Below the pieces are notes generated by a model that was given only the letters and a program-made list of their open reading frames with translations, searched no databases and had not been told where the DNA came from. A stretch of DNA of 19,287 bases from assembly GCA_024276825.1 (NCBI GenBank), contig JAJRWI010000019.1:1-19287 (forward strand), given 5' to 3'. This document shows, piece after piece, positions 2,451 to 13,500 of this stretch (the first letter of the stretch is position 1; each line of letters begins with the position of its first letter). This DNA comes from an archaeon. GTDB lineage: Archaea; Asgardarchaeota; Thorarchaeia; Thorarchaeales; Thorarchaeaceae. The position numbers and the translations under genes were made by a program.

Positions 2451-4439
2451 CTAATTATTGGAATGGTACATTTTTCGCCAGAAAATGACTGTACCAATGG
2501 AGATTGGAACTATACTAATTAAGAGTATGATGATTATTGTGTTTATTTTAGGGTTATGATCATATCCATCGGGTGCCAGATCGACATCGTAGTCTGGAAT
2601 TAGAGGGTCAAGGCCATCTATAAGTTCGAGTTGATCTCGCAGACCATCATTATCTGTGTCATCGGAAAGGGGGTTCATTCCTCGGGCGACCTCTTCAACA
2701 TCAGGCACACCATCAAAGTCGCCATCTGATGACCAAGGATCTGAACCATAGATGTATTCCTGATAGTTCGTTAATGTGTCATTGTCATAATCAGCAGCCG
2801 AGTCATTGACGAGCGGGTTAGTGAGAAATGTCACTTCCCAGTAATCGTCCATTGCATCCCCATCAGTATCATTCGTTGAGGGATCAAGGCCCATCATCAG
2901 TTCGCGAATGTTGTTCAGACCATCATGATCGAGGTCCTCAAGGGTGTCATCACGAAGAGGGTCCATTCCATACATGACTTCAACTCCATCAGCAATTGAG
3001 TCAGAGTCTGTGTCCGAGATGAAGATATCAGTGCCATAGAGCTTCTCCTCATCATCAGGAAGTAGGTCATGGTCCCAATCAAGTGGGGGATTTGGCTCAG
3101 GCCAAGAGTATTGGTCCTTATCGAGTGTTCCATCACCATCCGTGTCCGAGGTATAGTTCAAGTAGAGTTCTATATCCACGGGTTCATCATACAAGTTTGT
3201 GACTTGCACATACAAGGGGCCCAAAGGGATAATTGAGGGGGTTTGGATCGAAAATCTCTGCTCGGAAATCTCAATGGGGCCATATAATGTGTTTGTACCG
3301 TTGTGAAATGAGATGCGTACTGTTCCATTAATGGACTTTGATCCTGAAAGCTTAAGGGTCTGGGGATTAGATATCACAGTTCTTATGAAAGCCTGACCTT
3401 TGGGTTCTAGCGTCTGCTTTAGTTTGAATGAGGTTTCATGGCCATTTCCTTTTAACCCCAGATATACCGCAACAGACGCAGCTGCTTTGGCAAGATTGAG
3501 AGCCTGCTCCTTATCATAGCTCGTTGAACTCACAACATCTGCAGGAGCATTCTCAGGGTCAATTGTATGACCTCCCCTGACATTTATTGCAGGAAAGCCC
3601 TCATGCCAGAATGACCAGTGGTCTGTCTGAGTGGACCAGTCTTGAACTGAACTCATAACATCCATCCCTGTTCTTTGCATTGCAGCAACTAGTAGATCCG
3701 CCAGATACTTCGTTTCATGATAGCCATAAGTGAACATGTTGTTATATTCCGCAAGAAGGCGCTCATGTGGGTCTTGCAATGGGTCAACATATAGAAGTTC
3801 ATCAAAATTATAATATGCAATAACCTTCACGCCATTATCCTTCAGGTATTGTGCAACATCTTTAGAACCCCACATCGCTCGAAGCTGCTGCTGATCATCA
3901 AGAAACACTGTATTGTAGGAGAAGAATCCATAGTATATATCAATAGGCAGCCTGAATTGAGAAAGGATGCTGGCAATTGCAGAAACTACAGCACAACCAC
4001 CCGCATTCTGTTGAACTCCTATACCAGACTCATCACTATCAAGATGTGCTCCAAAGACAATTGCTCTCTTATCGGTGCCATATCCCCTCTGATGACCCAG
4101 CACAGAATAATGCGTGCCAACATAATCAGTTTCGATTCCAAGATCATTTAGGCGATCAATGAGGTAGGATGCCGCTGTATAGTAGTGAGTATTTGGATTC
4201 TTCATATAGCGATTTCCAAACCCCGCAATCTTTCCCAGAGGCTCGAGGAGTTCTGAGAGCGAGGCTATTTCCTCTGCAATATCCCACCAGTTCAGGTTAT
4301 TGTAAGGATGGGGCTCTATGATAACTTCTTGGGGAGGAGCAGTCTGGTTCTGAGGTGTGAACAAGAGAAGATATGATACTGTTCCGCTAGATATGATGAG
4401 GGCAAGTAATATCAATGCCGAGGTCCGTCTGGAACGCAT
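2451..4439 (-). CDS. Membrane-anchored M28 (Zn-aminopeptidase) fold protein with Ca-binding DxDxDG (TSP3-like) repeats; active site degenerate
   Basis: N-terminal hydrophobic anchor; M28-like motifs AIVFGAHLDS, NAGGCAVV, YYNFDEL, TDHWSFWHEGFPAI; a beta-rich middle domain; about 9 DxDxD repeats; C-terminal TM (TIIIILLISIVPISIGTVIFW) followed by RK. Confidence 0.85.
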   Translation of the reverse strand: MRSRRTSALILLALIISSGTVSYLLLFTPQNQTAPPQEVIIEPHPYNNLNWWDIAEEIASLSELLEPLGKIAGFGNRYMKNPNTHYYTAASYLIDRLNDLGIETDYVGTHYSVLGHQRGYGTDKRAIVFGAHLDSDESGIGVQQNAGGCAVVSAIASILSQFRLPIDIYYGFFSYNTVFLDDQQQLRAMWGSKDVAQYLKDNGVKVIAYYNFDELLYVDPLQDPHERLLAEYNNMFTYGYHETKYLADLLVAAMQRTGMDVMSSVQDWSTQTDHWSFWHEGFPAINVRGGHTIDPENAPADVVSSTSYDKEQALNLAKAAASVAVYLGLKGNGHETSFKLKQTLEPKGQAFIRTVISNPQTLKLSGSKSINGTVRISFHNGTNTLYGPIEISEQRFSIQTPSIIPLGPLYVQVTNLYDEPVDIELYLNYTSDTDGDGTLDKDQYSWPEPNPPLDWDHDLLPDDEEKLYGTDIFISDTDSDSIADGVEVMYGMDPLRDDTLEDLDHDGLNNIRELMMGLDPSTNDTDGDAMDDYWEVTFLTNPLVNDSAADYDNDTLTNYQEYIYGSDPWSSDGDFDGVPDVEEVARGMNPLSDDTDNDGLRDQLELIDGLDPLIPDYDVDLAPDGYDHNPKINTIIIILLISIVPISIGTVIFWRKMYHSNN
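2550..3146 (-). repeat. About 9 tandem acidic Ca-binding repeats (DxDxDGxxDxxE...G.DP), 20-24 aa period
   Basis: DTDGDGTLD, DWDHDLLPD, DTDSDSIAD, DLDHDGLNN, DTDGDAMDD, DYDNDTLTN, DGDFDGVPD, DTDNDGLRD, DYDVDLAPD in the translation. Confidence 0.85.
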
Positions 4440-4469
4440 AATGAATCAGGCTGTCGGAGGAAGATATCC

Positions 4470-4523
4470 ATAAAAAAGGTGCGAATCGAACAAGATTTTG
4501 ACTCATTGACAGCCCTTATATTT
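4470..4523. promoter_or_regulatory. Divergent promoter region with two TATA-like boxes
   Basis: TTTTTTAT on the minus strand (4470-4477) about 30 nt before ATG 4439; CTTATATTT on the plus strand (4515-4523) about 30-45 nt before ATG 4554/4569. Confidence 0.45.
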
Positions 4524-4553
4524 AACTTATCGGAGTAATCGTAATCCACAAAA

Positions 4554-5675
4554 ATGGATGGCGGTCAAATGGTAGAATTCGACAAATGCGTTCGATGCGG
4601 TTCATGCCTTAAGATATGCCCGATTTTCGAGGTAATCGGAGAGGAACAGTACTCGCCGCGAGGGAAGCTGTACCTGCTGCAGATTATGGACATGATAGAG
4701 AATGACAAGGAACTCGGCAAAGAGTTCAGAAGGCTTCTGTTTCAATGTACTCTCTGTGGAAGGTGTAGTGAGACCTGTTCATCAGATGTCGATCTTCTTA
4801 AGGTTTGGCACGAACAGAGAGGAAAGGCAATTCATGAGGCCCCAGAGGAGTTTGCATATCTTGATGCATTGAGAGATGCCCTTAGTGAAGTGAAGAACAT
4901 TTACGGCCTTGACCCTGAAGACAGAGCAGTGTTCTGGATGGATGAACTTGAGGACGAGTTCCCCAACCTCGAAGAACATGTATATTCAGAGGGAAAAACA
5001 GCAGAGGTGATGGTGTTCCTCGGATGCTTAATGTCGTTTCGTGGAAGCCAGATTGATGTAGTGAGAGGGCTAATATCATCATTGGAGAAAGAAGGCGTGG
5101 ATTATCTGCTCATGGGCGCAGAAGAGTTCTGCTGTGGGCATCCATTATATCTCACTGGTGATGATGCAGGAGCGAAGCAACTCAGGGATCATAACAGAGA
5201 TGTCATCCATAAGGCAAAAGCTAAGACTGTGGTCACCTGTTGCCCAGGATGCTTGATTCAATTATCAAAGTATCATGAGCTTGGAGATGTCGAGGCACTT
5301 CATCACACACAGTTCTTTGATCGCCTGCTTAAAACCACGCCAAAAACAAAGAGAAGCGAAGAGTTTGCATATCATGACCCTTGCGAGCTGCACAGAATTC
5401 TGGGCATCAAGAAGGAGCCCAGATCCCTTCTGAATAAGATGAAGGTCAACTTTCGTGAGATGGACCTAGCATGTTGTGGGGGTGGCGGGCTTTTGCGGAT
5501 GACTGATCCTAACCTCAGTGACAAGGTCATCCAGCTCCGCAAGGCTAAGGAGAGGATACAGGACACTACTGTTGTGACTGCTTGTCCGTCATGCAGAGAA
5601 CAGCTTCTGAGCGCTGGAAGCAAGACTGTGGATATTATAGAACTGCTTGCTGAAGCACTGGAGGATGAACAATGA
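4554..5675 (+). CDS. HdrD/GlcF/GlpC-like Fe-S oxidoreductase (two [4Fe-4S] motifs plus two CCG domains)
   Basis: CVRCGSCLKICP and CTLCGRCSETC ferredoxin motifs, SPRGK, FLGC..EFCCG..TCCPGC and YHDPC..ACCGGGG..TACPSC. The true start may be ATG 4569. Confidence 0.9.
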   Translation: MDGGQMVEFDKCVRCGSCLKICPIFEVIGEEQYSPRGKLYLLQIMDMIENDKELGKEFRRLLFQCTLCGRCSETCSSDVDLLKVWHEQRGKAIHEAPEEFAYLDALRDALSEVKNIYGLDPEDRAVFWMDELEDEFPNLEEHVYSEGKTAEVMVFLGCLMSFRGSQIDVVRGLISSLEKEGVDYLLMGAEEFCCGHPLYLTGDDAGAKQLRDHNRDVIHKAKAKTVVTCCPGCLIQLSKYHELGDVEALHHTQFFDRLLKTTPKTKRSEEFAYHDPCELHRILGIKKEPRSLLNKMKVNFREMDLACCGGGGLLRMTDPNLSDKVIQLRKAKERIQDTTVVTACPSCREQLLSAGSKTVDIIELLAEALEDEQ

Positions 5676-7015
5676 GGATACGTGATGTTGTTATTGGTGC
5701 AAATGCCTCAATGTACTATAGACTGAACTTCTCGAAGATCAGGGGAGTGTTTTATCCAAGGTCTGAACAAGAGGTCCTACAGATTGTTCTCAAGGCAAAT
5801 GAGCAGGGACTTGATATTACTCCTAAGGGTGGTGGTTCTGGTCTAAGTGGTGCATGTACAGGGGGTGATCGTGAGAGGTTCATGATAAGCACGCTTCAGA
5901 TGAGGGAGATTCTGACAATCTCGAAAGACCAGAGATATGTCGATGTCCAGCCCGGTGCTACGCCTAATGAGATTAATGATCTCTTGGAGCCGCTCAAGAT
6001 GAAATTCTATGTTGCTCCGAGCAGCCGTGACATTGCCACTGTTGGTGGGCTCATCAGCACCGATGGCGGTGGAAATGATACATGGGTCAATGGCACAATG
6101 AGGGACAACACCATTCGTGTGAAAATGATACTATATAATGGTGCACAGCTTGTTGTTGATTGGGATGGTGTCAGGTCAAATGACAAGTCCCTTGAAGAAA
6201 AACTGAACAGGGCAGGTATGACAATTCATGATGTGGCTAGTTCACATGGAACACTTGGAATTATCACAGAACTTCGTGTGAGAATCAAGCCTTTGGTTGA
6301 GGAAGAGTTGATTGGAGGGGTTGCCGAGTTTGATGACTATGACTCGCTTGGCCAAGCAATTCAGAGTCTGATAGATGCCAAGTTTCCAGTGAGATATGGC
6401 GAGGCTATAGTCCAGGCTCATGAGGATGTTCGTGGAGACCTCAGACTCCCCTTGTTAGTCCTTGAGTACCCAAGGGATGATGCATTACAAGAGAAGCTGA
6501 CGGCGATTGCAGACTTCAGACATTTGAGCAAGGAGGAGGTAGAATATCTCAAGGACACACGCATCAAGCTGCCAAAACGCAATCCCAAAGAGGGCATCCA
6601 GGTAGCACTCTTTGAGGGCTATGGACTTCATGGCAAGAGTCTGACCGAGATGAGTCATAGCATAACTGAAGTCAACGAACTCTTAATGGAAGACGGATTT
6701 CGCCCCTTTGCTAAGTACGGTCATGCCCCTAGCAAGTGGTATCTTGGCGACAATTCAGAGGCCTTTGGATTGGTCATGCATTCGAGAGAGATTCGACCAG
6801 AGGGAAGGTCAGGTAAGGAGATCTTCAAGACGGTCGCGCGAATTGTTGACAAATGCCTTGAACTCGGAATAACTCCCAAGCCAGAGCACAAGTGGCCATT
6901 CAGCGATGATGTGAAGAAGAAGAGAATTATGAAACTTCGCGATATCATTGGCGGCGGGTTTAACTCGTTCATCCTTGATGACAATGCAGGAGAGGTCCTT
7001 GGGAGCATGGTGTAA
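5672..7015 (+). CDS. FAD-binding oxidoreductase, GlcD / D-lactate dehydrogenase (PCMH/VAO) family
   Basis: PKGGGSGLSGA, VDVQPG, PSSRDIATVGGLISTDGGG, SSHGTLGIITE, and C-terminal GH...H...EH metal ligands; ATGA overlap with the upstream gene. Confidence 0.88.
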   Translation: MRIRDVVIGANASMYYRLNFSKIRGVFYPRSEQEVLQIVLKANEQGLDITPKGGGSGLSGACTGGDRERFMISTLQMREILTISKDQRYVDVQPGATPNEINDLLEPLKMKFYVAPSSRDIATVGGLISTDGGGNDTWVNGTMRDNTIRVKMILYNGAQLVVDWDGVRSNDKSLEEKLNRAGMTIHDVASSHGTLGIITELRVRIKPLVEEELIGGVAEFDDYDSLGQAIQSLIDAKFPVRYGEAIVQAHEDVRGDLRLPLLVLEYPRDDALQEKLTAIADFRHLSKEEVEYLKDTRIKLPKRNPKEGIQVALFEGYGLHGKSLTEMSHSITEVNELLMEDGFRPFAKYGHAPSKWYLGDNSEAFGLVMHSREIRPEGRSGKEIFKTVARIVDKCLELGITPKPEHKWPFSDDVKKKRIMKLRDIIGGGFNSFILDDNAGEVLGSMV

Positions 7016-7078: not shown

Positions 7079-8221
7079 ATGATAATGGTCAGATCTCACA
7101 GAAGTCCCCGTGGCCTTTTCGATCCTTATTACGTTCCGGAGAGGCTTCTTCATCGTGATAGGGAGTTAGCGATGATTGATGGCGTGTATAGTGATTCTTA
7201 TGAAGACGAGTATGGAGTGAACTGTCTTGTCCATGGAATCACTGGTGTTGGCAGAACTGTGTTCTCACGATATTTTCTGACAAAGGTCATTCCTCAGAAG
7301 TTTGATGCACATACGGTCTATGTAGATGCCAGATACAAGAGTGTGACAGAAATTGTTTCAGAATTGAGTGATAAGATTCTATCCCTAGAAGAGAAACCTG
7401 TCACCATAGCATTTGACCTTGATCAATTGTGGATTCAGTTCAAGCGTGCAGCCTCAGCATCATCCAAAAGAACAGTGTTCGTCATTGACAATATTGATGA
7501 TGCTAATGAGGAGGTCTATGTAAAGCTTGCAAGACTCTCAAAGGAGATTAAGGCTAGCACGATAGGCGTATTGAACAGTCATGATTACAGATTTCTCACC
7601 AAGGTGCCTGCAAGCTCAATGGCATACGACTTTGAGATTGCGCTGGACATATTCACCCAGTCCCAACTATATGAGATAATCCGAATGAGGGTTGAGGACA
7701 CATTTCCGACAGGTCTCACAGAAGAGGCCATTAGATACCTATGCGACATCGTTACTGAGTTTGATGCCTCAAAGCCCAAGTCATCTATTGAGGCCTTGAA
7801 AGTTCTCTGGCCACTGGCTCAGAGTGGAAAGGACATTGACTCTGACGCAATCAGGGCGGCAACATCAAAGATTACATCCATCGCTCATGATCAGGAGTAT
7901 CTTGACATTGTTGATATAATCAGCATGAATGACTTCATGACCCTCCTCGTCCTTGAGGCCCTTGCTGAGCATCTGATGCGATATAAGACTGAGGCATATA
8001 TTGACAGACAAATATTGAACGAGCTGGTTGAAATCAAGTGTGAAGAGATGAGCATCAAATATGCCAAAGAAGACATCGACAAGAGCCTACAGACCCTAAT
8101 CTTTCAGAGTATTGTTTTTGAGTCAGGCTATTCGAGAGACCTACTTTATGTGCTGGTCCCACCAGAGATATTATACGACACAGCATTAGTGCTGAGGAGA
8201 GAGCTTATAAGAAGAAAATAA
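7079..8221 (+). CDS. cdc6: Orc1/Cdc6-family AAA+ protein, divergent paralogue with degenerate ATPase motifs
   Basis: Family N-terminal signature LFDPYYVPERLLHRDREL, Walker A-like GITGVGRT, TVYVDA, Walker B-like FVIDNID, FTQSQLYEIIRMRV (cf. Y..EQL.DIL..R), and a winged-helix-sized C-terminus. Confidence 0.85.
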   Translation: MIMVRSHRSPRGLFDPYYVPERLLHRDRELAMIDGVYSDSYEDEYGVNCLVHGITGVGRTVFSRYFLTKVIPQKFDAHTVYVDARYKSVTEIVSELSDKILSLEEKPVTIAFDLDQLWIQFKRAASASSKRTVFVIDNIDDANEEVYVKLARLSKEIKASTIGVLNSHDYRFLTKVPASSMAYDFEIALDIFTQSQLYEIIRMRVEDTFPTGLTEEAIRYLCDIVTEFDASKPKSSIEALKVLWPLAQSGKDIDSDAIRAATSKITSIAHDQEYLDIVDIISMNDFMTLLVLEALAEHLMRYKTEAYIDRQILNELVEIKCEEMSIKYAKEDIDKSLQTLIFQSIVFESGYSRDLLYVLVPPEILYDTALVLRRELIRRK

Positions 8222-8992: not shown

Positions 8993-9026
8993 CACGCATG
9001 CATCCTGAGTAGTGGAGGGTACGTAA

Positions 9027-9506
9027 TTGGATATTACCGTAGAGAGAAGAGTAGAACAATCAGATCATGCTTTTTCTAGAAGCGAGAAGTTCGAGATCAA
9101 CAATATCGAGTTTACTGAGATCACTATTGATAGGAACAGGATAACTGCAAGGTCCAAGAAATGGTCCCAATTTGAACTACTGATCAGTTTCATTGGAGCT
9201 GCATGGATGGAGAGATGGAGACGGTTCGGTCTCAAAGTGTTGGTAATTGGCTTGGTGCTCATTTTAAGCCCTTACATGGCATCAATAATACCAGTCATAG
9301 GGCCATTGATCATCTATAGTGGATACATGATGATTATGCTGCTTATGATGATTGGTCTTATTCTAATATTGCTATGGGCACTACTCAAGAGAGAGGCATT
9401 GCTTCTTTACACTCCCGGAGGTACATTCAAGATAGAGGGCTCTGCTGGCTTCGTTGAGGCAGTCTGGCAAGAAGTCGTTAAGTATCAGAGAGAACGGGAA
9501 GTTTGA
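9027..9506 (+). CDS. Hypothetical two-TM membrane protein, possibly a PH-like fold interrupted by a TM hairpin
   Basis: TTG start with GGAGGG SD at 9014-9019; two hydrophobic helices flanked by basic residues; alternating beta-strand patterns on both sides and a C-terminal amphipathic helix. Confidence 0.75.
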   Translation: MDITVERRVEQSDHAFSRSEKFEINNIEFTEITIDRNRITARSKKWSQFELLISFIGAAWMERWRRFGLKVLVIGLVLILSPYMASIIPVIGPLIIYSGYMMIMLLMMIGLILILLWALLKREALLLYTPGGTFKIEGSAGFVEAVWQEVVKYQREREV

Positions 9507-9760
9507 ATGCTTCCCATTATTGTAGAATGATGAAAAAGTGAATTGTAATAGCATTATCTAAAAAGAAATCTAAACCGAGAGAGAAGACTAGCATTGTCAC
9601 TGGAGTGAAAAAGGACATCAAATTAAGGGGTTCCAAATGGAATCTACATCATGCCGTGAATTTTGGCTGGCGAAGAGTGCTGCAACGAATCATCCAAAGC
9701 CTCAGTGGCTTTTTGAAAAATGTGGTTCTTATTACCGAAGATGATGACAGTTATAGTGAG

Positions 9761-10516
9761 ATGAGTAATCGCAGGACCCTCGCAGGCATGGGATTCAGGA
9801 CTGCTGATGAGCTAGTCCGCCAGATGGTGGGGACCGGAACACCAGAGCTTGACGACCTACTGGGAGGGGGCCTTGAGGCTGGAATGATACATCTCTTTCA
9901 TGGGGACGGGGGGCTCCACAGGGACCTTCTCAGAATGGCGGTCCACATCCAGTTGCCCAAGGAGAGAGGTGGGTTGGACAGTCCCACAATCATCATTGAC
10001 AGTTGTAACATGATCAAGATTGAGGATGTCACCGACTATGCCTTCGAGTTCGAACTGGAGCCAGAGATTGTGATGGACAGAATATTCATAACGAGGGCGT
10101 TCAACTCATCCCAGACCTATGACCTTGTGATGAACCATCTAGAGTCATTCTTTGACAGGGTGCCTGCAAGGCTACTCATCGTATCGGGTCTGCCAGACCT
10201 GTATGTCTTGGAGCAGGTGTCGGGGGAGAGGCTCCAGGAGCTCACACATATGGCAACAAAGATAATGACGTTCACACTCCAACGCAGACTCTTCACGGTG
10301 GTCTCCGCTCAGGACGCGGGTCAACAGCCATATCATCCTGCAGGTGGAAAAGCACTGTCAAGCTGCGCTCAGATCCATGTGCATGTCAAAGAGGGAAAAC
10401 ACTACTTCAAGTATGTACTCGCCAAGCACCCACAGTATCCAGTGAAGAGGGCTTCACGAACAAAGCCAGTCAGATTCGGAGAAACCCTCCCCCTCTCATT
10501 CTTCCTCAAAGAGTGA
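9761..10516 (+). CDS. RadA/Rad51 paralogue, predicted ATPase-inactive
   Basis: GFRTADE..GTGTPELDDLLGGGLEAG, IQLPKERGGLDSPTIIIDS, MDRIFITRAFNSSQ and HPAGGKALS align with RadA/Rad51. Walker A is replaced by HGDGGLHRD and the Walker B Asp is lost (LLIVSG). Start moved to ATG 9761 (TATA-like CTTATTA at 9728-9734); ATG 9788 is also possible. Confidence 0.85.
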   Translation: MSNRRTLAGMGFRTADELVRQMVGTGTPELDDLLGGGLEAGMIHLFHGDGGLHRDLLRMAVHIQLPKERGGLDSPTIIIDSCNMIKIEDVTDYAFEFELEPEIVMDRIFITRAFNSSQTYDLVMNHLESFFDRVPARLLIVSGLPDLYVLEQVSGERLQELTHMATKIMTFTLQRRLFTVVSAQDAGQQPYHPAGGKALSSCAQIHVHVKEGKHYFKYVLAKHPQYPVKRASRTKPVRFGETLPLSFFLKE

Positions 10517-10524
10517 GGGGGAGG
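10486..10524. terminator. Inverted repeat at the junction of the convergent radA-like and giant-protein genes
   Basis: CCTCCCCCTC (10486-10495) and GAGGGGGAGG (10515-10524) form a perfect 10-bp stem. Confidence 0.45.
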
Positions 10525-10530
10525 AGGACC

Positions 10531-13500
10531 TTATTCTTCAGAGTCCACACCAAGACTCCGAATCAGTTCTTCCACGAGCTCTCTGGGCAAATCTTTCGCC
10601 TGTTCCATTATCGTGTCGATCTCATGAGCAGGCACACCTTTACGAATCAGGTCCTTTCGAAGTTCCTCCAGTTCGTATTGACTCAGCTTATCAGTCACTG
10701 ATACAGGTTCTTTGCCCTCCGTTATCTCAGGTTCAGGAGCCCTTTCCTCAATGACCTCATGAGTGGGTTCAATCTCCTCTTCTGTGAGGAGTATTGGTGC
10801 TTCCTCCTCTGGGGTGACCATTCCAACCTCTGCGATGGGTGCCTCGGTCTCGCCTGCCAGTCTTCTCAGAGCCTCAGCTCTAACAGACTCAAGAACCTCT
10901 TCAATGGTCTTGCCATCGCGCCTTGCGGCCCTAATGGCCTCCTGATGGATGACTTCTTTCACGAAGGCCGCTTGCTCGCTCATCTTCATCTTGGAGATGT
11001 CTGCCTTGAACTCGTCCAGCTCCTCACGACTCAAGTTAGTGAGTATTGCAAGCTGGATGAGAAGTTCTCCAATCTCGGGCACATCTACAGGCACTGACTC
11101 TTCTGGCATCTGATCCGGTGTCCTTGTAATCTCCATTCCTGCGTAGGTGTCATTGTATAAGTCAGCTAGCAGTTCAGACCTACTCTTGACATCGCTAATG
11201 GGCTTCGGAACCTTGCCCTTGTTCAATGCTCTTATCTGACCATTGATCTGTCGAAGTCTCTTGGGTATGCTGAAGTGTTTGGCCCATAGTACTGCAATTA
11301 AGAGTACCAAGAGTGAGAGAGGAGTGCCATAAGAGATTGCAGCACCCATTGTGTTTTGACTCTCAGTTGGTATTATTGTGATTGCCAGTTCCAGTGTTCG
11401 CCCCTCATAGTTGGCAAGAGTTATTGAGATGTATACTCTAACACTGTTCTGAGTCAGACCAACTGGAACAAGAGGTGCAGGTGCTTGAACTGTGATCTTG
11501 TATAGACCATCTTCACCAGCTGAACCATTGAACAAAATCACAATTGCTTCTTCTTCACTAGTTCCGATTAATTCTGCACCTGAGATTCTCACGCCAGCAG
11601 AAAGGTTCCATGTTTCAGTGTATAGGAAAAGAACATCCCTTGTATCACCATAATGCATCAATAATCGGCCATCAACAACATCAGGAGATGCAAAATTGAA
11701 ATTAGTCGGGCGCTCAATAACAGTGATCTCAATCTCCACAGTCTGGCTAACACGGTATATTAGTTCTAATGTGAGCCTCATCCTGAATGGATCTTCAGGC
11801 AATGCTTGGGGAATGAAATCATTTGCCTCAAAGAGTCGGATATCAGTGGAATCAAAGATGAAATAGTAAGTGCCATTCTGTAGGTCAATAAGGCCATACA
11901 AACTCTTAGAACTGCCAAGACCACCGCCCCAAATTGCAGTGATGTTTGTTGCTCCATTAAGGCCACCAACATAGCCATCTGAGCTATCAGTGTCATTGAA
12001 GAACAGTCGAATCATTATAGAATCGCCAAATGGCACCTGAAGGATGTCACTCTCAGAATCAACCTGATTGACTTCAGGAGTTATAAGCGACAGACTTGTA
12101 GGTACAGGCTCAATATTGATCTGCATGCCACCATTGCTTACTTGGAAGTTGTCCTTGGTAAATGAGATCACAAGAGTGTACTGACGAGTTGAGAGAAGAC
12201 TTGTATTGACAAAGACAGCATAATAGCCATTTCCCAAGTCTTCAGCTATACCCGAATATGTTGAATAGCTGTATATTGTGTCAGCACCCTTGATTCCTCT
12301 GATATTATGAGTGTCATTGTAGAAGAATAGAACATTGCCGCTCCAACCCCAATACACTGTGAGTGTGTTTGGACTGACAACCTGAGTTGGAATGAGCCGA
12401 ATAGTAAGGGTCAATGTTAAGACGGTTTCTGCAAGGTTGGGGTCCCCTGGGGTTGCATAGAAAGTCAGACCAAAGGTACCGTAAGTCAGAACTGATGTAT
12501 TAAATGATAACGACCAAAGTCCAGTTGAGGGATTGACTGTAAACGTGTAATTGATGCCAAAGGACTTGTAGGACCAGAGGATTGTTGCGTTTGTGATGGG
12601 TATTCCAGAAACGGTTTCATTGAATGTTAGTGTGAATGCGAGAATATCACCCCAGTATGCTTCCATCTTCGCTTCGGTTGGCGCCGCATAGTGTAGTGAG
12701 GTTTCTGTGGCAAGCAGAGTTATCTTGAATATTGTGCTCACCGGCACATAGTTTCGTAGATTTGCAGTAATTCGGGCACTGTAGGTAATGCCTGGCTCCA
12801 GAGTAGCAGTGGCCACAGATGGAAGTATTCCAAACCAGCTATTTGTTGTCGCATTGAGCTGCAGAGAATACTCGACTCCTTGGAATGTCATCACGACCCA
12901 ATTGACATAAGTTGGGTCAATTAACACGCTGTCGTTGTCAATCAGGTTCACAGAAACATCTATGGGATTTCCTCGTGGCACTTCAGATATGCTCTGAGGC
13001 TCCAATAGATTAATATCGCTAGGCAGTGCAAGTACAATCAGTGTCACCGTGGTCACTGCAACAGTGTATTTGTTCTTGTTTGCTGTAATTGTCACCACTC
13101 GGGTTCCACTATCAGCTAGTGATGTGTCTATGTATCCGTGATACTGTCCAGAAGAACCAATCTCCGTGAATGAGCCTGATGCTGTACCGTAAGTCCAAGT
13201 GACCGTGGCACCGGAAGTCAGATTTTCAAAGAGGAGATTTTCATAACTCACGATTATGTAAGCAGACTCTTTCCAGTACAGAGTGATTGAGGTTTCAGCA
13301 GGGGTCAACACGGTGTTGATGGGTACCACTGTAAATGATGGGGTCACTGTTGATGTTGTATAGTCTGACTTCACTGCAGTTATGTTGAGCGCCTGATTTC
13401 CAAAGGTAGTGAGATCTATGGTGTTGAAACTGATATTATAACGACCATCACCAATCAATGTCACTGTAAGGCCTTGTGGAACAACTCCCGTGTCCAAGTA

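What the first reader, a model, noticed from the sequence alone, without database searches (positions are those of the whole stretch)
9761..10516. ATPase-dead RadA paralogue with FxxA filament motif and C-terminal PIP-like box: candidate recombinase-to-PCNA adaptor
Seen: the protein lacks the N-terminal HhH domain and begins almost directly at MGFRTADE (FxxA at 9794-9805; cf. RAD51 MGFTTATE). Both Walker motifs are destroyed, and it ends in an extended tail TLPLSFFLKE (10484-10513). Known: FxxA mediates RadA/Rad51 polymerisation and is mimicked by BRCA2 BRC repeats; C-terminal QxxLxxFF-type motifs bind PCNA; inactive RecA-family proteins accompany mutagenic polymerases (bacterial ImuA, archaeal PolB2 operons). 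Inference: it docks on or caps RadA filaments and tethers them to the clamp, acting as a mediator or damage-tolerance adaptor. No polB2 is adjacent in the window.
Basis: partly seen in the sequence, partly recalled or inferred. Interest (0 to 1): 0.72.

Follow-up and report, generated by a model that had tools for sequence, protein, structure and literature searches.

The report
Thorarchaeal iRadA, helper of PolB2 polymerase
This gene encodes an enzymatically dead copy of the archaeal recombinase RadA that belongs to the already described "iRadA" helper of the damage-tolerance polymerase PolB2; in this Asgard lineage it lies far from the polymerase genes and still carries RadA's own docking peptide plus a clamp-binding-like tail, so it may link that polymerase to recombination filaments and the sliding clamp.

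Summary
Window 9761-10516 (+) encodes a 251-aa RadA-core protein with no HhH domain. Walker A, Walker B and the catalytic Glu are all lost. It has an N-terminal GFRTAD that aligns with the F97 polymerisation motif of P. furiosus RadA, and a tail TLPLSFFL. Both motifs are conserved in 101-112 of 112 Thorarchaeota orthologues, position by position.

The protein is not a new kind of adaptor. It is the Thorarchaeal iRadA, the inactive RadA subunit of the PolB2-PPB2-iRadA translesion "mutasome" (Makarova 2014; Timinskas 2025). The evidence:
- The genome carries a PPB2 (MGRT...) plus PolB2 (IVD active site) operon on another contig, with no iRadA beside it.
- In other Asgard and Thermoplasmatota lineages, the homologues of this protein lie beside PPB2-PolB2.
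- A tree joins all of them, apart from RadA, with 100/100 support.

C-terminal PCNA-binding motifs in iRadAs are already published; the tail here is a Q-less, degenerate version.

Two things appear new: the unlinked position, about 220-230 kb from the polymerase genes in Thorarchaeota, and the retained canonical FxTA docking peptide, which the 2025 paper does not mention.

Binding to RadA, PCNA or PolB2 is inferred, not shown. This scan has noted the same protein before in other Thorarchaeota genomes.

The parts
9761..10516 (+). iRadA coding sequence (251 aa plus stop): a RadA/Rad51 ATPase-core fold without the HhH N-terminal domain
   Evidence: ORF; Pfam Rad51, 57 bits; PfRadA, E 5e-18; AF2 model pLDDT 88, pTM 0.84; RAD51/RadA cores at TM about 0.8; tree
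9722..9736 (+). Promoter-like element GTGGTTCTTATTACC. The TATA-like TTATTA at 9729-9734 ends 27 nt before the ATG.
   Evidence: the same GTGG-N3-4-TTAT(T/A)A element lies at the same distance upstream of the orthologues in L016, L017 and L018. Seen in sequence only; there is no transcript evidence.
9791..9808 (+). GFRTAD (residues 11-16), the RadA-type FxxA polymerisation or docking motif, in a flexible N-terminal peptide
   Evidence: aligns with PfRadA F97-MRA; own RadA has GFETAD; F, T, A and D each in 111 of 112 orthologues; residues 1-14 have pLDDT below 50
9902..9925 (+). Remnant of Walker A: GDGGLHRD in place of GEFGSGKT
   Evidence: no G-x4-G-K-[ST] in any of 131 family members
9998..10006 (+). 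D80-S81-C82 in place of RadA D-T-E; the catalytic Glu is lost
   Evidence: alignment (IDTEN against IDSCN); (position 82 is Ala in 104 of 112)
10172..10189 (+). Remnant of Walker B: LLIVSG in place of LLIVDS; the Asp is lost
   Evidence: position 142 is T, A or S; G143 is invariant
10484..10513 (+). C-terminal tail TLPLSFFLKE. T-L-P-L-S-x-F-L has PIP-box spacing (L at position 4, F at 7, L at 8) but no Gln. The model shows a short helix at residues 245-248.
   Evidence: conservation; same position as NTTLDYWF, QTSLNRYW and PTLDAYFL in PolB2-linked iRadAs; PIP boxes of the own genome
7079..8221 (+). Divergent Orc1/Cdc6-family AAA+ gene with Walker A GITGVGRT, a syntenic neighbour of iRadA. This is context and not shown to be functionally linked.
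   Evidence: TIGR02928, 79 bits, below its cut-off; Sulfolobus Cdc6-1 2qby, E 3e-17; same gene order in three other Thorarchaeota genera; PMC4104785 and PMC11791011 report orc1/cdc6 enrichment near PolB2 operons

Best explanation
The gene encodes the Thorarchaeal orthologue of iRadA. iRadA is the catalytically inactive RadA-family accessory subunit of the PolB2-PPB2-iRadA translesion-synthesis complex, the "PolB2 mutasome". Here it is encoded apart from the PPB2-PolB2 operon.

Shown here:
- It has a RadA ATPase-core fold without the HhH domain.
- It cannot bind or hydrolyse ATP in the normal way, because Walker A, Walker B and the catalytic Glu are gone.
- It forms one clade with iRadAs that are encoded beside PPB2-PolB2 in other Asgard lineages and in Thermoplasmatota.
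- Its own genome has a PPB2-PolB2 operon that lacks an iRadA.

Inferred from the published AlphaFold models of other lineages: the RadA-type groove on its core receives a beta-alpha loop of PolB2. iRadA would thus sit in a PolB2-iRadA-(PPB2)3 complex.

Inferred from sequence:
- The C-terminal T-L-P-L-S-x-F-L tail is a degenerate, Gln-less PIP box that tethers the complex to PCNA. Thorarchaeal PolB2 itself has no PIP-like end.
- The flexible N-terminal G-F-x-T-A-D peptide is identical in pattern to the genome's own RadA polymerisation motif. It would insert into the free FxxA pocket of a RadA protomer at a filament end. That would bring the error-prone polymerase and the clamp to RadA-coated gaps or D-loops, much as RecA from a filament tip joins Pol V.

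My confidence in the separate steps: iRadA identity about 0.85, PCNA binding by the tail about 0.55, RadA docking by the FxTA peptide about 0.4.
For: Fold and lost catalytic motifs.

Own genome: PPB2 (91 aa, MGRTVRTF...) at C41:4550-4825 overlaps the start of PolB2 (756 aa; Pfam DNA_pol_B; active-site HGIVDS, that is IVD instead of DxD). There is no RadA-like gene within 4.5 kb upstream or 7 kb downstream.

Linkage elsewhere: profile A3 and the own PolB2 were searched in the same 201 Asgard genomes. In non-Thorarchaeota families the hits lie side by side. Examples are G053 C8:3248-3961 with 4281-6533, G023 C1:2394035-2394766 with 2395125-2397371, and G147, G040, G193, G107, G102 and G184. Reading seven such loci shows iRadA, then PPB2 (MGRT), then PolB2.

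PPB2-centred loci: of 80 loci, 62 hold an iRadA-like ORF within 6 kb; the two Thorarchaeota-type loci do not.

Tree: all 41 iRadA-like rows (Thorarchaeota, PolB2-linked Asgard, PolB2-linked Thermoplasmatota) separate from 18 RadAs with ultrafast bootstrap/SH-aLRT 100/100.

Phyletic pattern: the Asgard families with no PolB2 hit have only RadA-level A3 scores.

Tail: it occupies the position of NTTLDYWF, QTSLNRYW and NMSLDHYL in linked iRadAs. PCNA clients of the own genome end in Q[TS][TS]L.E[FYW][FL], and the replicative PolB ends in the Gln-less VTTLDDFF. The ends of Thorarchaeal PolB2 show no PIP. One PCNA gene is present.

Literature: iRadA clamp motifs, PolB2 docking in the iRadA groove and orc1/cdc6 neighbourhoods are described in PMC11791011 and PMC4104785.

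Groove: the Phe-pocket residues of RAD51 (M158, I160, A192, L203; PMC4855620) map through PfRadA numbering (PMC5117717) to I77, I79, T111 and L122. I77 and I79 are invariant or nearly invariant in the orthologues. T111 is Ser or Thr and L122 is Leu, Ile or Val. The groove is therefore plausibly kept.
Against: - The gene is not in an operon with PPB2-PolB2 in any Thorarchaeota genome examined. Where both lie on one contig they are 222-232 kb apart (G069, G124, G098).
- No complex could be modelled, because only single chains can be folded here. No expression data exist.
- The tail lacks the canonical Gln and has Pro at PIP position 3.
- The window's copy has the shortest tail of the 112 orthologues (2 residues after the motif, where the others have 4-15, about half acidic). 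It also carries rare substitutions at otherwise conserved positions (H47 for Tyr, G50 for Arg/Lys).
- The linker between FxTA and the core is 5 residues shorter than in RadA.
- The segment that is F-x-P in RadA and in other iRadAs is (M/I)-I-(K/R)-I in the Thorarchaeota clade. I recall that RadA segment as part of the Ala pocket, from memory only. The groove may therefore differ.
- A few fairly complete Thorarchaeota genomes show PolB2 without a detectable iRadA (G197, G005) or iRadA without PolB2 (G112).
- Long-branch attraction among inactivated RadAs could inflate the tree support.
Confidence: 0.75

Rival explanations
1. A neofunctionalised, stand-alone regulator of RadA filaments. After leaving the PolB2 operon, the Thorarchaeal iRadA would work like a Rad51 paralogue or RadB-type mediator or cap. 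It would dock through FxTA on RadA filaments, independently of PolB2.
For: - Unlinked in all Thorarchaeota genomes examined, with stable synteny elsewhere.
- Canonical G-F-x-T-A-D is kept under strong constraint.
- The Thorarchaeota clade has altered the F-x-P groove segment that other iRadAs keep.
- Some Thorarchaeota genomes carry two copies.
- The fold search recovers RAD51 chains from entries in which RAD51-paralogue complexes cap RAD51 filaments. This shows only fold likeness.
Against: - The Thorarchaeal PPB2-PolB2 operon has no other iRadA candidate. The other degenerate paralogue (L005) does not match the iRadA profile and sits beside a FEN1-like gene.
- Near-universal co-occurrence with PolB2 in the family (41 of 43 genomes).
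- Clade membership with operon-encoded iRadAs.
- The conserved PIP-like tail is shared with them.
Confidence: 0.15
2. The N-terminal FxTA peptide does not contact RadA. Instead it contacts the groove of iRadA itself. It would do so in trans, giving iRadA oligomers, or in cis as an autoinhibitory plug that PolB2's loop displaces.
For: - iRadA keeps hydrophobic Phe-pocket positions.
- The published models put a RadA-like beta-alpha motif of PolB2 into that groove, so a competing internal ligand is plausible.
- The linker is 5 residues shorter than in RadA.
- The peptide is disordered in the monomer model.
Against: - The motif matches the genome's own RadA motif almost letter for letter (GFETAD against GFRTAD).
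- Most PolB2-linked iRadAs do without a canonical FxxA. Loki-type ones have GF.(V/L)Y. A plug is therefore not a general requirement.
Confidence: 0.25
3. The conserved tail is not a PCNA-binding motif. It would contact another partner (PolB2, PPB2, RadA or an SSB/RPA-type protein) or pack back onto the core.
For: - No Gln at PIP position 1, Pro at position 3, and Ser at position 5 invariant. This is unlike the Q[TS][TS]L.E[FYW][FL] consensus of seven PCNA clients in the same genome.
- Most orthologues follow the motif with an acidic stretch, which is not a known PIP feature.
Against: - It lies at the same C-terminal position as much more PIP-like ends (NTTLDYWF, QTSLNRYW) in related iRadAs.
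- The own replicative PolB has a Gln-less VTTLDDFF end.
- The relaxed pattern is rare (18 of 2927 ORF ends) and enriched in PCNA clients.
- Published PCNA-iRadA models include a Lokiarchaeota pair.
- Thorarchaeal PolB2 lacks a PIP of its own.
Confidence: 0.3

Closest known systems
iRadA of the archaeal PolB2-PPB2-iRadA mutasome (arCOG04294/07763/08101; Makarova et al. 2014, PMC4104785; Timinskas et al. 2025, PMC11791011)
   Same: - RadA core without the N-terminal domain.
- Walker A, Walker B and the catalytic residues are lost.
- The genome encodes PPB2 (MGRT N-terminus) and PolB2 (DxD changed to IVD).
- A C-terminal clamp-binding-type motif.
- An orc1/cdc6-family neighbour.
- It groups with operon-encoded iRadAs at 100/100 support.
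   Different: - Not in the operon; it lies on another contig, and 222-232 kb away in related genomes.
- It keeps a canonical RadA G-F-x-T-A-D polymerisation motif, which the papers do not describe. The 2025 paper names loss of the N-terminal helical domain, which it says is involved in RadA oligomerisation, as the major difference from RadA.
- The PIP-like tail is degenerate (T-L-P-L-S-x-F-L).
- No Thorarchaeota entry was found in the held parts of the paper's supplementary tables.
Archaeal RadA / eukaryotic RAD51 recombinase
   Same: The same ATPase-core fold (TM about 0.8; PfRadA E 5e-18). The FxTA motif is at the homologous position. Several RadA signature stretches are kept (TG..LD.LLGGG.E, LP.E.GGL, RAFNS, P.GG).
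   Different: No HhH N-terminal domain and no ATP site. The NCBIfam RadA score is 78.5 bits against a cut-off of 259. The linker is 5 residues shorter, and there is an extra C-terminal extension carrying the tail.
E. coli Pol V mutasome (UmuD'2C-RecA-ATP)
   Same: An error-prone polymerase works with one RecA-family protomer, held through a filament-type oligomerisation contact, and acts with the sliding clamp. This is a likeness in how it works, as argued in PMC11791011.
   Different: The polymerase families differ (Y against B). Pol V uses the active RecA taken from a filament, not a dedicated dead paralogue. The clamp motif is on UmuC, not on the RecA-family subunit.
RadB and eukaryotic RAD51 paralogues (XRCC2, the RAD51C/D/XRCC3 complexes)
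   Same: Short RecA-fold proteins that assist or cap recombinase filaments. Weak sequence matches were found (XRCC2 E 8e-4, RadB 30 bits).
   Different: RadB and most RAD51 paralogues keep a P-loop. The genome has its own RadB-like gene (L003). Orthology to the RAD51 paralogues was not tested by phylogeny here.

Membership tests
iRadA (PolB2 mutasome subunit) | RadA/Rad51 ATPase-core fold lacking the N-terminal HhH domain | tested here: met
iRadA (PolB2 mutasome subunit) | ATPase residues inactivated (Walker A, Walker B, catalytic Glu) | tested here: met
   none of 131 members has a P-loop
iRadA (PolB2 mutasome subunit) | The same genome encodes PolB2 and PPB2 | tested here: met
   C41:4550-4825 (MGRT..., 91 aa) and C41:4825-7095 (756 aa, IVD)
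iRadA (PolB2 mutasome subunit) | Gene lies in or next to the PPB2-PolB2 operon | tested here: not met
   different contigs, or 222-232 kb apart, throughout the Thorarchaeota family. The feature is met for homologues in other Asgard families and in Thermoplasmatota.
iRadA (PolB2 mutasome subunit) | Common descent with operon-encoded iRadAs, apart from RadA | tested here: met
   (100/100 split; 60 rows, 253 columns)
iRadA (PolB2 mutasome subunit) | Physical complex with PolB2 and a PPB2 trimer | not testable with these tools
   Only single-chain prediction is offered. The published models cover other lineages.
PIP-box PCNA client | C-terminal Q-x-x-[LIM]-x-x-[FYW]-[FYWL] | tested here: inconclusive
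   L at position 4, F at 7 and L at 8 are present and conserved. The Gln is absent (Thr), and position 3 is Pro. The own PolB also lacks the Gln (VTTLDDFF). No binding test was possible.
Canonical RadA recombinase | P-loop, HhH N-terminal domain, and a score above the NCBIfam equivalog cut-off | tested here: not met
   (78.5 bits against 259). The genome has a separate canonical radA (L001).
RadB | Short RadA paralogue with an intact Walker A, and a score above the TIGR02237 cut-off | tested here: not met
   (30 bits against 172). The own RadB-like gene is L003, with GEAASGKT.

The most novel reading that the evidence does not exclude
In Thorarchaeota, and independently in some Thermoplasmatota iRadAs that carry DF(Q/I)(V/L)AKD, the dead RadA subunit would act as a three-way connector. 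Its groove would hold PolB2, its tail would hold PCNA, and its retained FxTA peptide would plug into the free pocket at the end of a RadA filament. The translesion polymerase would then be delivered specifically to recombination intermediates. This would be an archaeal, hard-wired counterpart of RecA-tip activation of Pol V, found in the lineage group closest to eukaryotes.
Probability: 0.3. Interest if true: 0.7.

Novelty: new variant of a known kind. Interest (0 to 1): 0.4.

Why it matters
PolB2 (Dpo2) is the polymerase reported to be required for damage-induced mutagenesis in Sulfolobus (as cited in PMC11791011), but its holoenzyme is known only from models. An iRadA that keeps RadA's own docking peptide gives a concrete, testable hypothesis for how the mutasome finds its substrate: by docking on RadA filaments.

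The Thorarchaeota case also shows that operon-based surveys miss iRadAs. Here the PolB2-PPB2 genes look like a two-gene system although a third subunit is encoded elsewhere.

For genome annotation, about 180 proteins now labelled "hypothetical" or "RecA/RadA recombinase" can be named.

Tried and rejected
Tools that gave nothing:
Orthologue contexts were taken from the genome search and the fetch from genomes instead.
A PPB2 alignment was used instead.
- Sequencing runs: none was listed for window 9000-11000, and no RNA holder was listed.

Leads that failed:
- A shared damage-response promoter motif. The Sulfolobus-type ANTTTC hexamer is absent upstream of iRadA in the window and in L016. It is not shared between iRadA and PPB2 upstream regions. 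A conserved TTACTTTCGG upstream of Thorarchaeal PPB2 is not found at iRadA.
- The Orc1/Cdc6-like neighbour has no homologue in the 80 PPB2-centred loci. Its link to iRadA rests on Thorarchaeota synteny alone.
- I tried to locate the iRadA-docking loop of PolB2 by alignment. The conserved F-P-Y-L stretch looks to me, from memory, like the decayed Exo II motif. The loop before S-R-D-[GK] could not be assigned without a complex model, so no claim is made.

Readings considered and rejected:
- A RadB or RadC identity.
- A pseudogene, excluded by strong conservation in 112 orthologues.
- The 303-aa reading from GTG 9605, which orthologue lengths and the promoter element argue against.
- The 234-aa degenerate paralogue L005 as the real iRadA. 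It has no iRadA-profile match and a different neighbourhood.
Full report
OBSERVATION. The ORF from ATG 9761 to TGA 10514-10516 encodes 251 residues. Pfam assigns the Rad51 family (57 bits, residues 22-213). NCBIfam RadA models score 77-78 bits, far below their cut-offs. The best solved relative is P. furiosus RadA (1pzn, E 5e-18). In that alignment F12-R-T-A pairs with F97-M-R-A, the known polymerisation motif. GEFGSGKT pairs with GDGGLHRD, IDTEN with IDSCN, and LLIVDS with LLIVSG. Walker A, the catalytic Glu and the Walker B Asp are therefore all gone. The linker between FxxA and the core is 5 residues shorter than in RadA, and there is no HhH domain.

CONSERVATION. A search of 5.8 billion proteins gave 181 relatives of 240-300 aa. 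Every one that carries an organism name is from Thorarchaeota, apart from one labelled Promethearchaeota. In 112 of them F12, T14, A15 and D16 are each kept in 111. L245 and S246 are kept in 112, P244 in 111, F248 in 110, T242 in 105, L243 in 103 and L249 in 101. No member has a P-loop. Orthologues begin about 10 residues before G-F. A conserved GTGG-N3-4-TTAT(T/A)A element lies 25-30 nt upstream of the ATG in four genera. The start is therefore 9761, and the FxxA motif is translated. The window's copy is slightly odd. Only two residues follow the tail motif, whereas other orthologues have 4-15, about half of them acidic. It also has His47 and Gly50 where 111 and 109 of the 112 have Tyr and Arg/Lys.

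STRUCTURE. An AlphaFold2 model built on 131 sequences has pLDDT 88 and pTM 0.84. Residues 1-14, which include FxTA, are disordered. The tail forms a short helix at 245-248. Foldseek returns RAD51 and RadA cores at TM about 0.8.

WHAT IT IS. More distant relatives (25-37% identity) come from Ranarchaeia and Loki-type Asgard archaea (those that carry an organism name). They share the lost motifs (LFYGD, V-S/T-G-L), a KHP motif and a C-terminal x-x-x-L-[DS]-x-[FYW]-[FLMI] end.

Notes from earlier follow-ups of this scan on other Thorarchaeota genomes pointed to "iRadA" of the PolB2 mutasome. I tested that lead in five ways.

(1) The literature. Makarova et al. 2014 describe inactivated RadA genes in predicted operons with PolB2 and arCOG07300. 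Timinskas et al. 2025 name the subunits PolB2, PPB2 (N-terminal MGRT) and iRadA. They model a PolB2-iRadA-(PPB2)3 complex in which a RadA-oligomerisation-like loop of PolB2 docks into iRadA. They also report PCNA-binding motifs at the C-terminus of many iRadAs, more often than in PolB2.

(2) The own genome. It is 2.94 Mb and 98% complete. At C41:4550-4825 it holds a 91-aa ORF starting MGRTVRTF, directly followed by a 756-aa family-B polymerase with HGIVDS (IVD in place of DxD). No RadA-like gene lies beside them.

(3) Linkage in other genomes. A profile of the family and the own PolB2 were searched in the same 201 Asgard genomes. Outside the window's family the two hits are neighbours. Examples are G053 C8:3248-3961 with 4281-6533, G023, G012, G147 and G040, and the weaker-scoring f22 genomes G193, G107, G102 and G184. 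In the window's family they are never neighbours. Where one contig holds both they are 232, 229 and 222 kb apart (G069, G124, G098). Seven neighbour loci read as iRadA, PPB2 (MGRT), PolB2. Of 80 PPB2-centred loci from named genomes (Loki-type, Hermod-, Hel-, Odin- and Hodarchaeota, Thermoplasmatota), 62 hold an iRadA-like ORF within 6 kb. The two Thorarchaeota-type loci hold none.

(4) Phylogeny. In a maximum-likelihood tree (60 rows, 253 columns, LG+C20), all 41 iRadA-like rows, including the Thorarchaeota clade and the PolB2-linked ones, are split from 18 RadAs with 100/100 support (quick versions).

(5) Phyletic pattern. The Asgard families without a PolB2 hit show only RadA-level scores to the profile.

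I conclude that the protein is the Thorarchaeal iRadA, encoded apart from its partners.

THE TWO MOTIFS. Tail. Seven PCNA clients or candidates in the own genome end in Q[TSP][TS][LI]x[ED V][FYW][FLI]. These are PolD DP2, FEN1, a second XPG-like nuclease, the Y-family polymerase, NreA, DUF72 and DUF2797. The replicative PolB ends in the Gln-less VTTLDDFF. PolB2-linked iRadAs end in NTTLDYWF, QTSLNRYW, NMSLDHYL or PTLDAYFL. The Thorarchaeota tail T-L-P-L-S-x-F-L sits at the same place and keeps positions 4, 7 and 8, but not 1-3. The relaxed pattern occurs at 18 of 2927 ORF ends, several of them PCNA clients. Thorarchaeal PolB2 ends (three examples) show no PIP, whereas Loki-type PolB2 ends in QKDLSCFI. 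One PCNA gene is present. The tail is therefore best read as a degenerate PIP box. Binding is inferred.

N-terminus. The own RadA has GFETAD, and iRadA has GFRTAD. Most PolB2-linked Asgard iRadAs lack a canonical motif; Loki-type ones have G-F-x-(V/L)-Y. Operon-linked Thermoplasmatota iRadAs have D-F-(Q/I)-(V/L)-A-K-D, and one relative has FRTANE. FxxA in iRadA is therefore not unique to Thorarchaeota. The 2025 paper does not mention it; its main text holds no occurrence of "FxxA", "Asgard" or "Thorarchaeota". The held parts of its tables list Loki- and Heimdallarchaeota operons but no Thorarchaeota.

Groove. Phe-pocket positions of RAD51 (PMC4855620) map through PfRadA numbering (PMC5117717) to I77, I79, T111 and L122. 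I77 is invariant and I79 nearly so in the orthologues. T111 is Ser or Thr and L122 is Leu, Ile or Val, so the groove is plausibly kept. The F-x-P segment that RadA and other iRadAs share is replaced in the Thorarchaeota clade. Its role as part of the Ala pocket is from my memory and was not tested.

MECHANISM. Shown: fold, loss of the ATPase, family membership, co-occurrence with an iRadA-less PPB2-PolB2 operon, and conservation of both terminal motifs. Inferred from published models: PolB2's loop occupies the iRadA groove. Inferred from sequence: the tail tethers the complex to PCNA, and the free FxTA peptide docks on a RadA protomer with an empty pocket at a filament end. This would recruit the polymerase to RadA-coated DNA, in parallel with RecA and Pol V. 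The rivals are set out in the Rival explanations section: a stand-alone RadA mediator, FxTA used for self-association or autoinhibition, and a tail that binds another partner.

CONTEXT. The gene order peptidase-like, CCG/Fe-S, FAD-binding, Orc1/Cdc6-like, GcvH (opposite strand), iRadA, giant surface protein (convergent) is kept in three other Thorarchaeota genera at 52-73% protein identity. The Orc1/Cdc6-like protein is divergent (TIGR02928 at 79 bits, below its cut-off; Sulfolobus Cdc6-1 E 3e-17) and has Arg for the Walker A Lys. The orc1/cdc6 enrichment near PolB2 operons is published. Here the association rests on synteny only, and no homologue lies in the 80 PPB2 loci.

NOVELTY. The family and its clamp motif are known. 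The unlinked position, the canonical RadA docking peptide and the degenerate PIP make this a new variant of a known kind. The same protein was noted before by this scan in other Thorarchaeota genomes.

LIMITS. The ultrafast bootstrap had not fully settled.

Noticed in passing
G000:C63, locus L001 1103-2223: The genome's canonical radA has a TATA-like TTTTATATAA, an ATG at L001 1141, then an in-frame TAG at 1165-1167 (codon 9). The frame stays open through the HhH domain into the core, but there is no ATG, GTG or TTG for 97 codons after the TAG. Possible readings are read-through or a recoded TAG, a sequencing error, or a non-canonical start after a GGAGGT at 1178-1183.
   Followed up: partly
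G000:C63, locus L005 391-2085 (- strand): A second degenerate RadA-family paralogue (234 aa, Walker A GPNKAPLT, RadB-like at 49 bits) abuts, on the same strand, a second XPG/FEN1-like nuclease (329 aa) that ends in the canonical PIP box QTTLEVWF. This may be a separate nuclease plus dead-RecA module.
   Followed up: partly
G000:C63, locus L002 1381-2424 (- strand): A second full-length RadA (347 aa, with HhH domain and intact GKARAGKT). It has FRSG in place of FxxA and a C-terminal extension containing QDAILKYL, a canonical-looking PIP pattern.
   Followed up: no
window 7079-8221 (+): A divergent Orc1/Cdc6-family AAA+ protein with Walker A GITGVGRT (Lys changed to Arg), syntenic with iRadA in four Thorarchaeota genera. 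It could be a damage-response regulator like Sulfolobus Orc1-2. Untested.
   Followed up: partly
G000:C81:59955-60773 (L025) and G000:C49:62082-62969 (L021): A DUF72 protein and a DUF2797 protein both end in canonical PIP boxes (QTSLDEYF, QSSLEEFF). DUF72 is one of the families reported as enriched near PolB2 operons (PMC11791011).
   Followed up: no
window 9027-9506 (+): A 159-aa ORF with predicted membrane segments lies between gcvH and iRadA. It has no counterpart at this position in the three syntenic Thorarchaeota loci (L016-L018), so it may not be a gene or may be strain-specific.
   Followed up: partly
L008 about 4420-4435; L027 and L028 about 125-150 nt upstream of PPB2: A conserved TTACTTTCGG-type element lies upstream of the PPB2-PolB2 operon in three Thorarchaeota genomes. 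It contains the ANTTTC hexamer, which I recall from memory (no paper on it was read here) as a feature of Sulfolobus damage-response promoters. It is not found upstream of iRadA.
   Followed up: partly
L030-L106 (PPB2-centred loci): In Loki-type Asgard loci both PolB2 (QKDLSCFI) and iRadA (NTTLDYWF) carry PIP-like ends. iRadA is usually separated from PPB2 by 1-4 kb of unrelated genes rather than being directly adjacent.
   Followed up: partly
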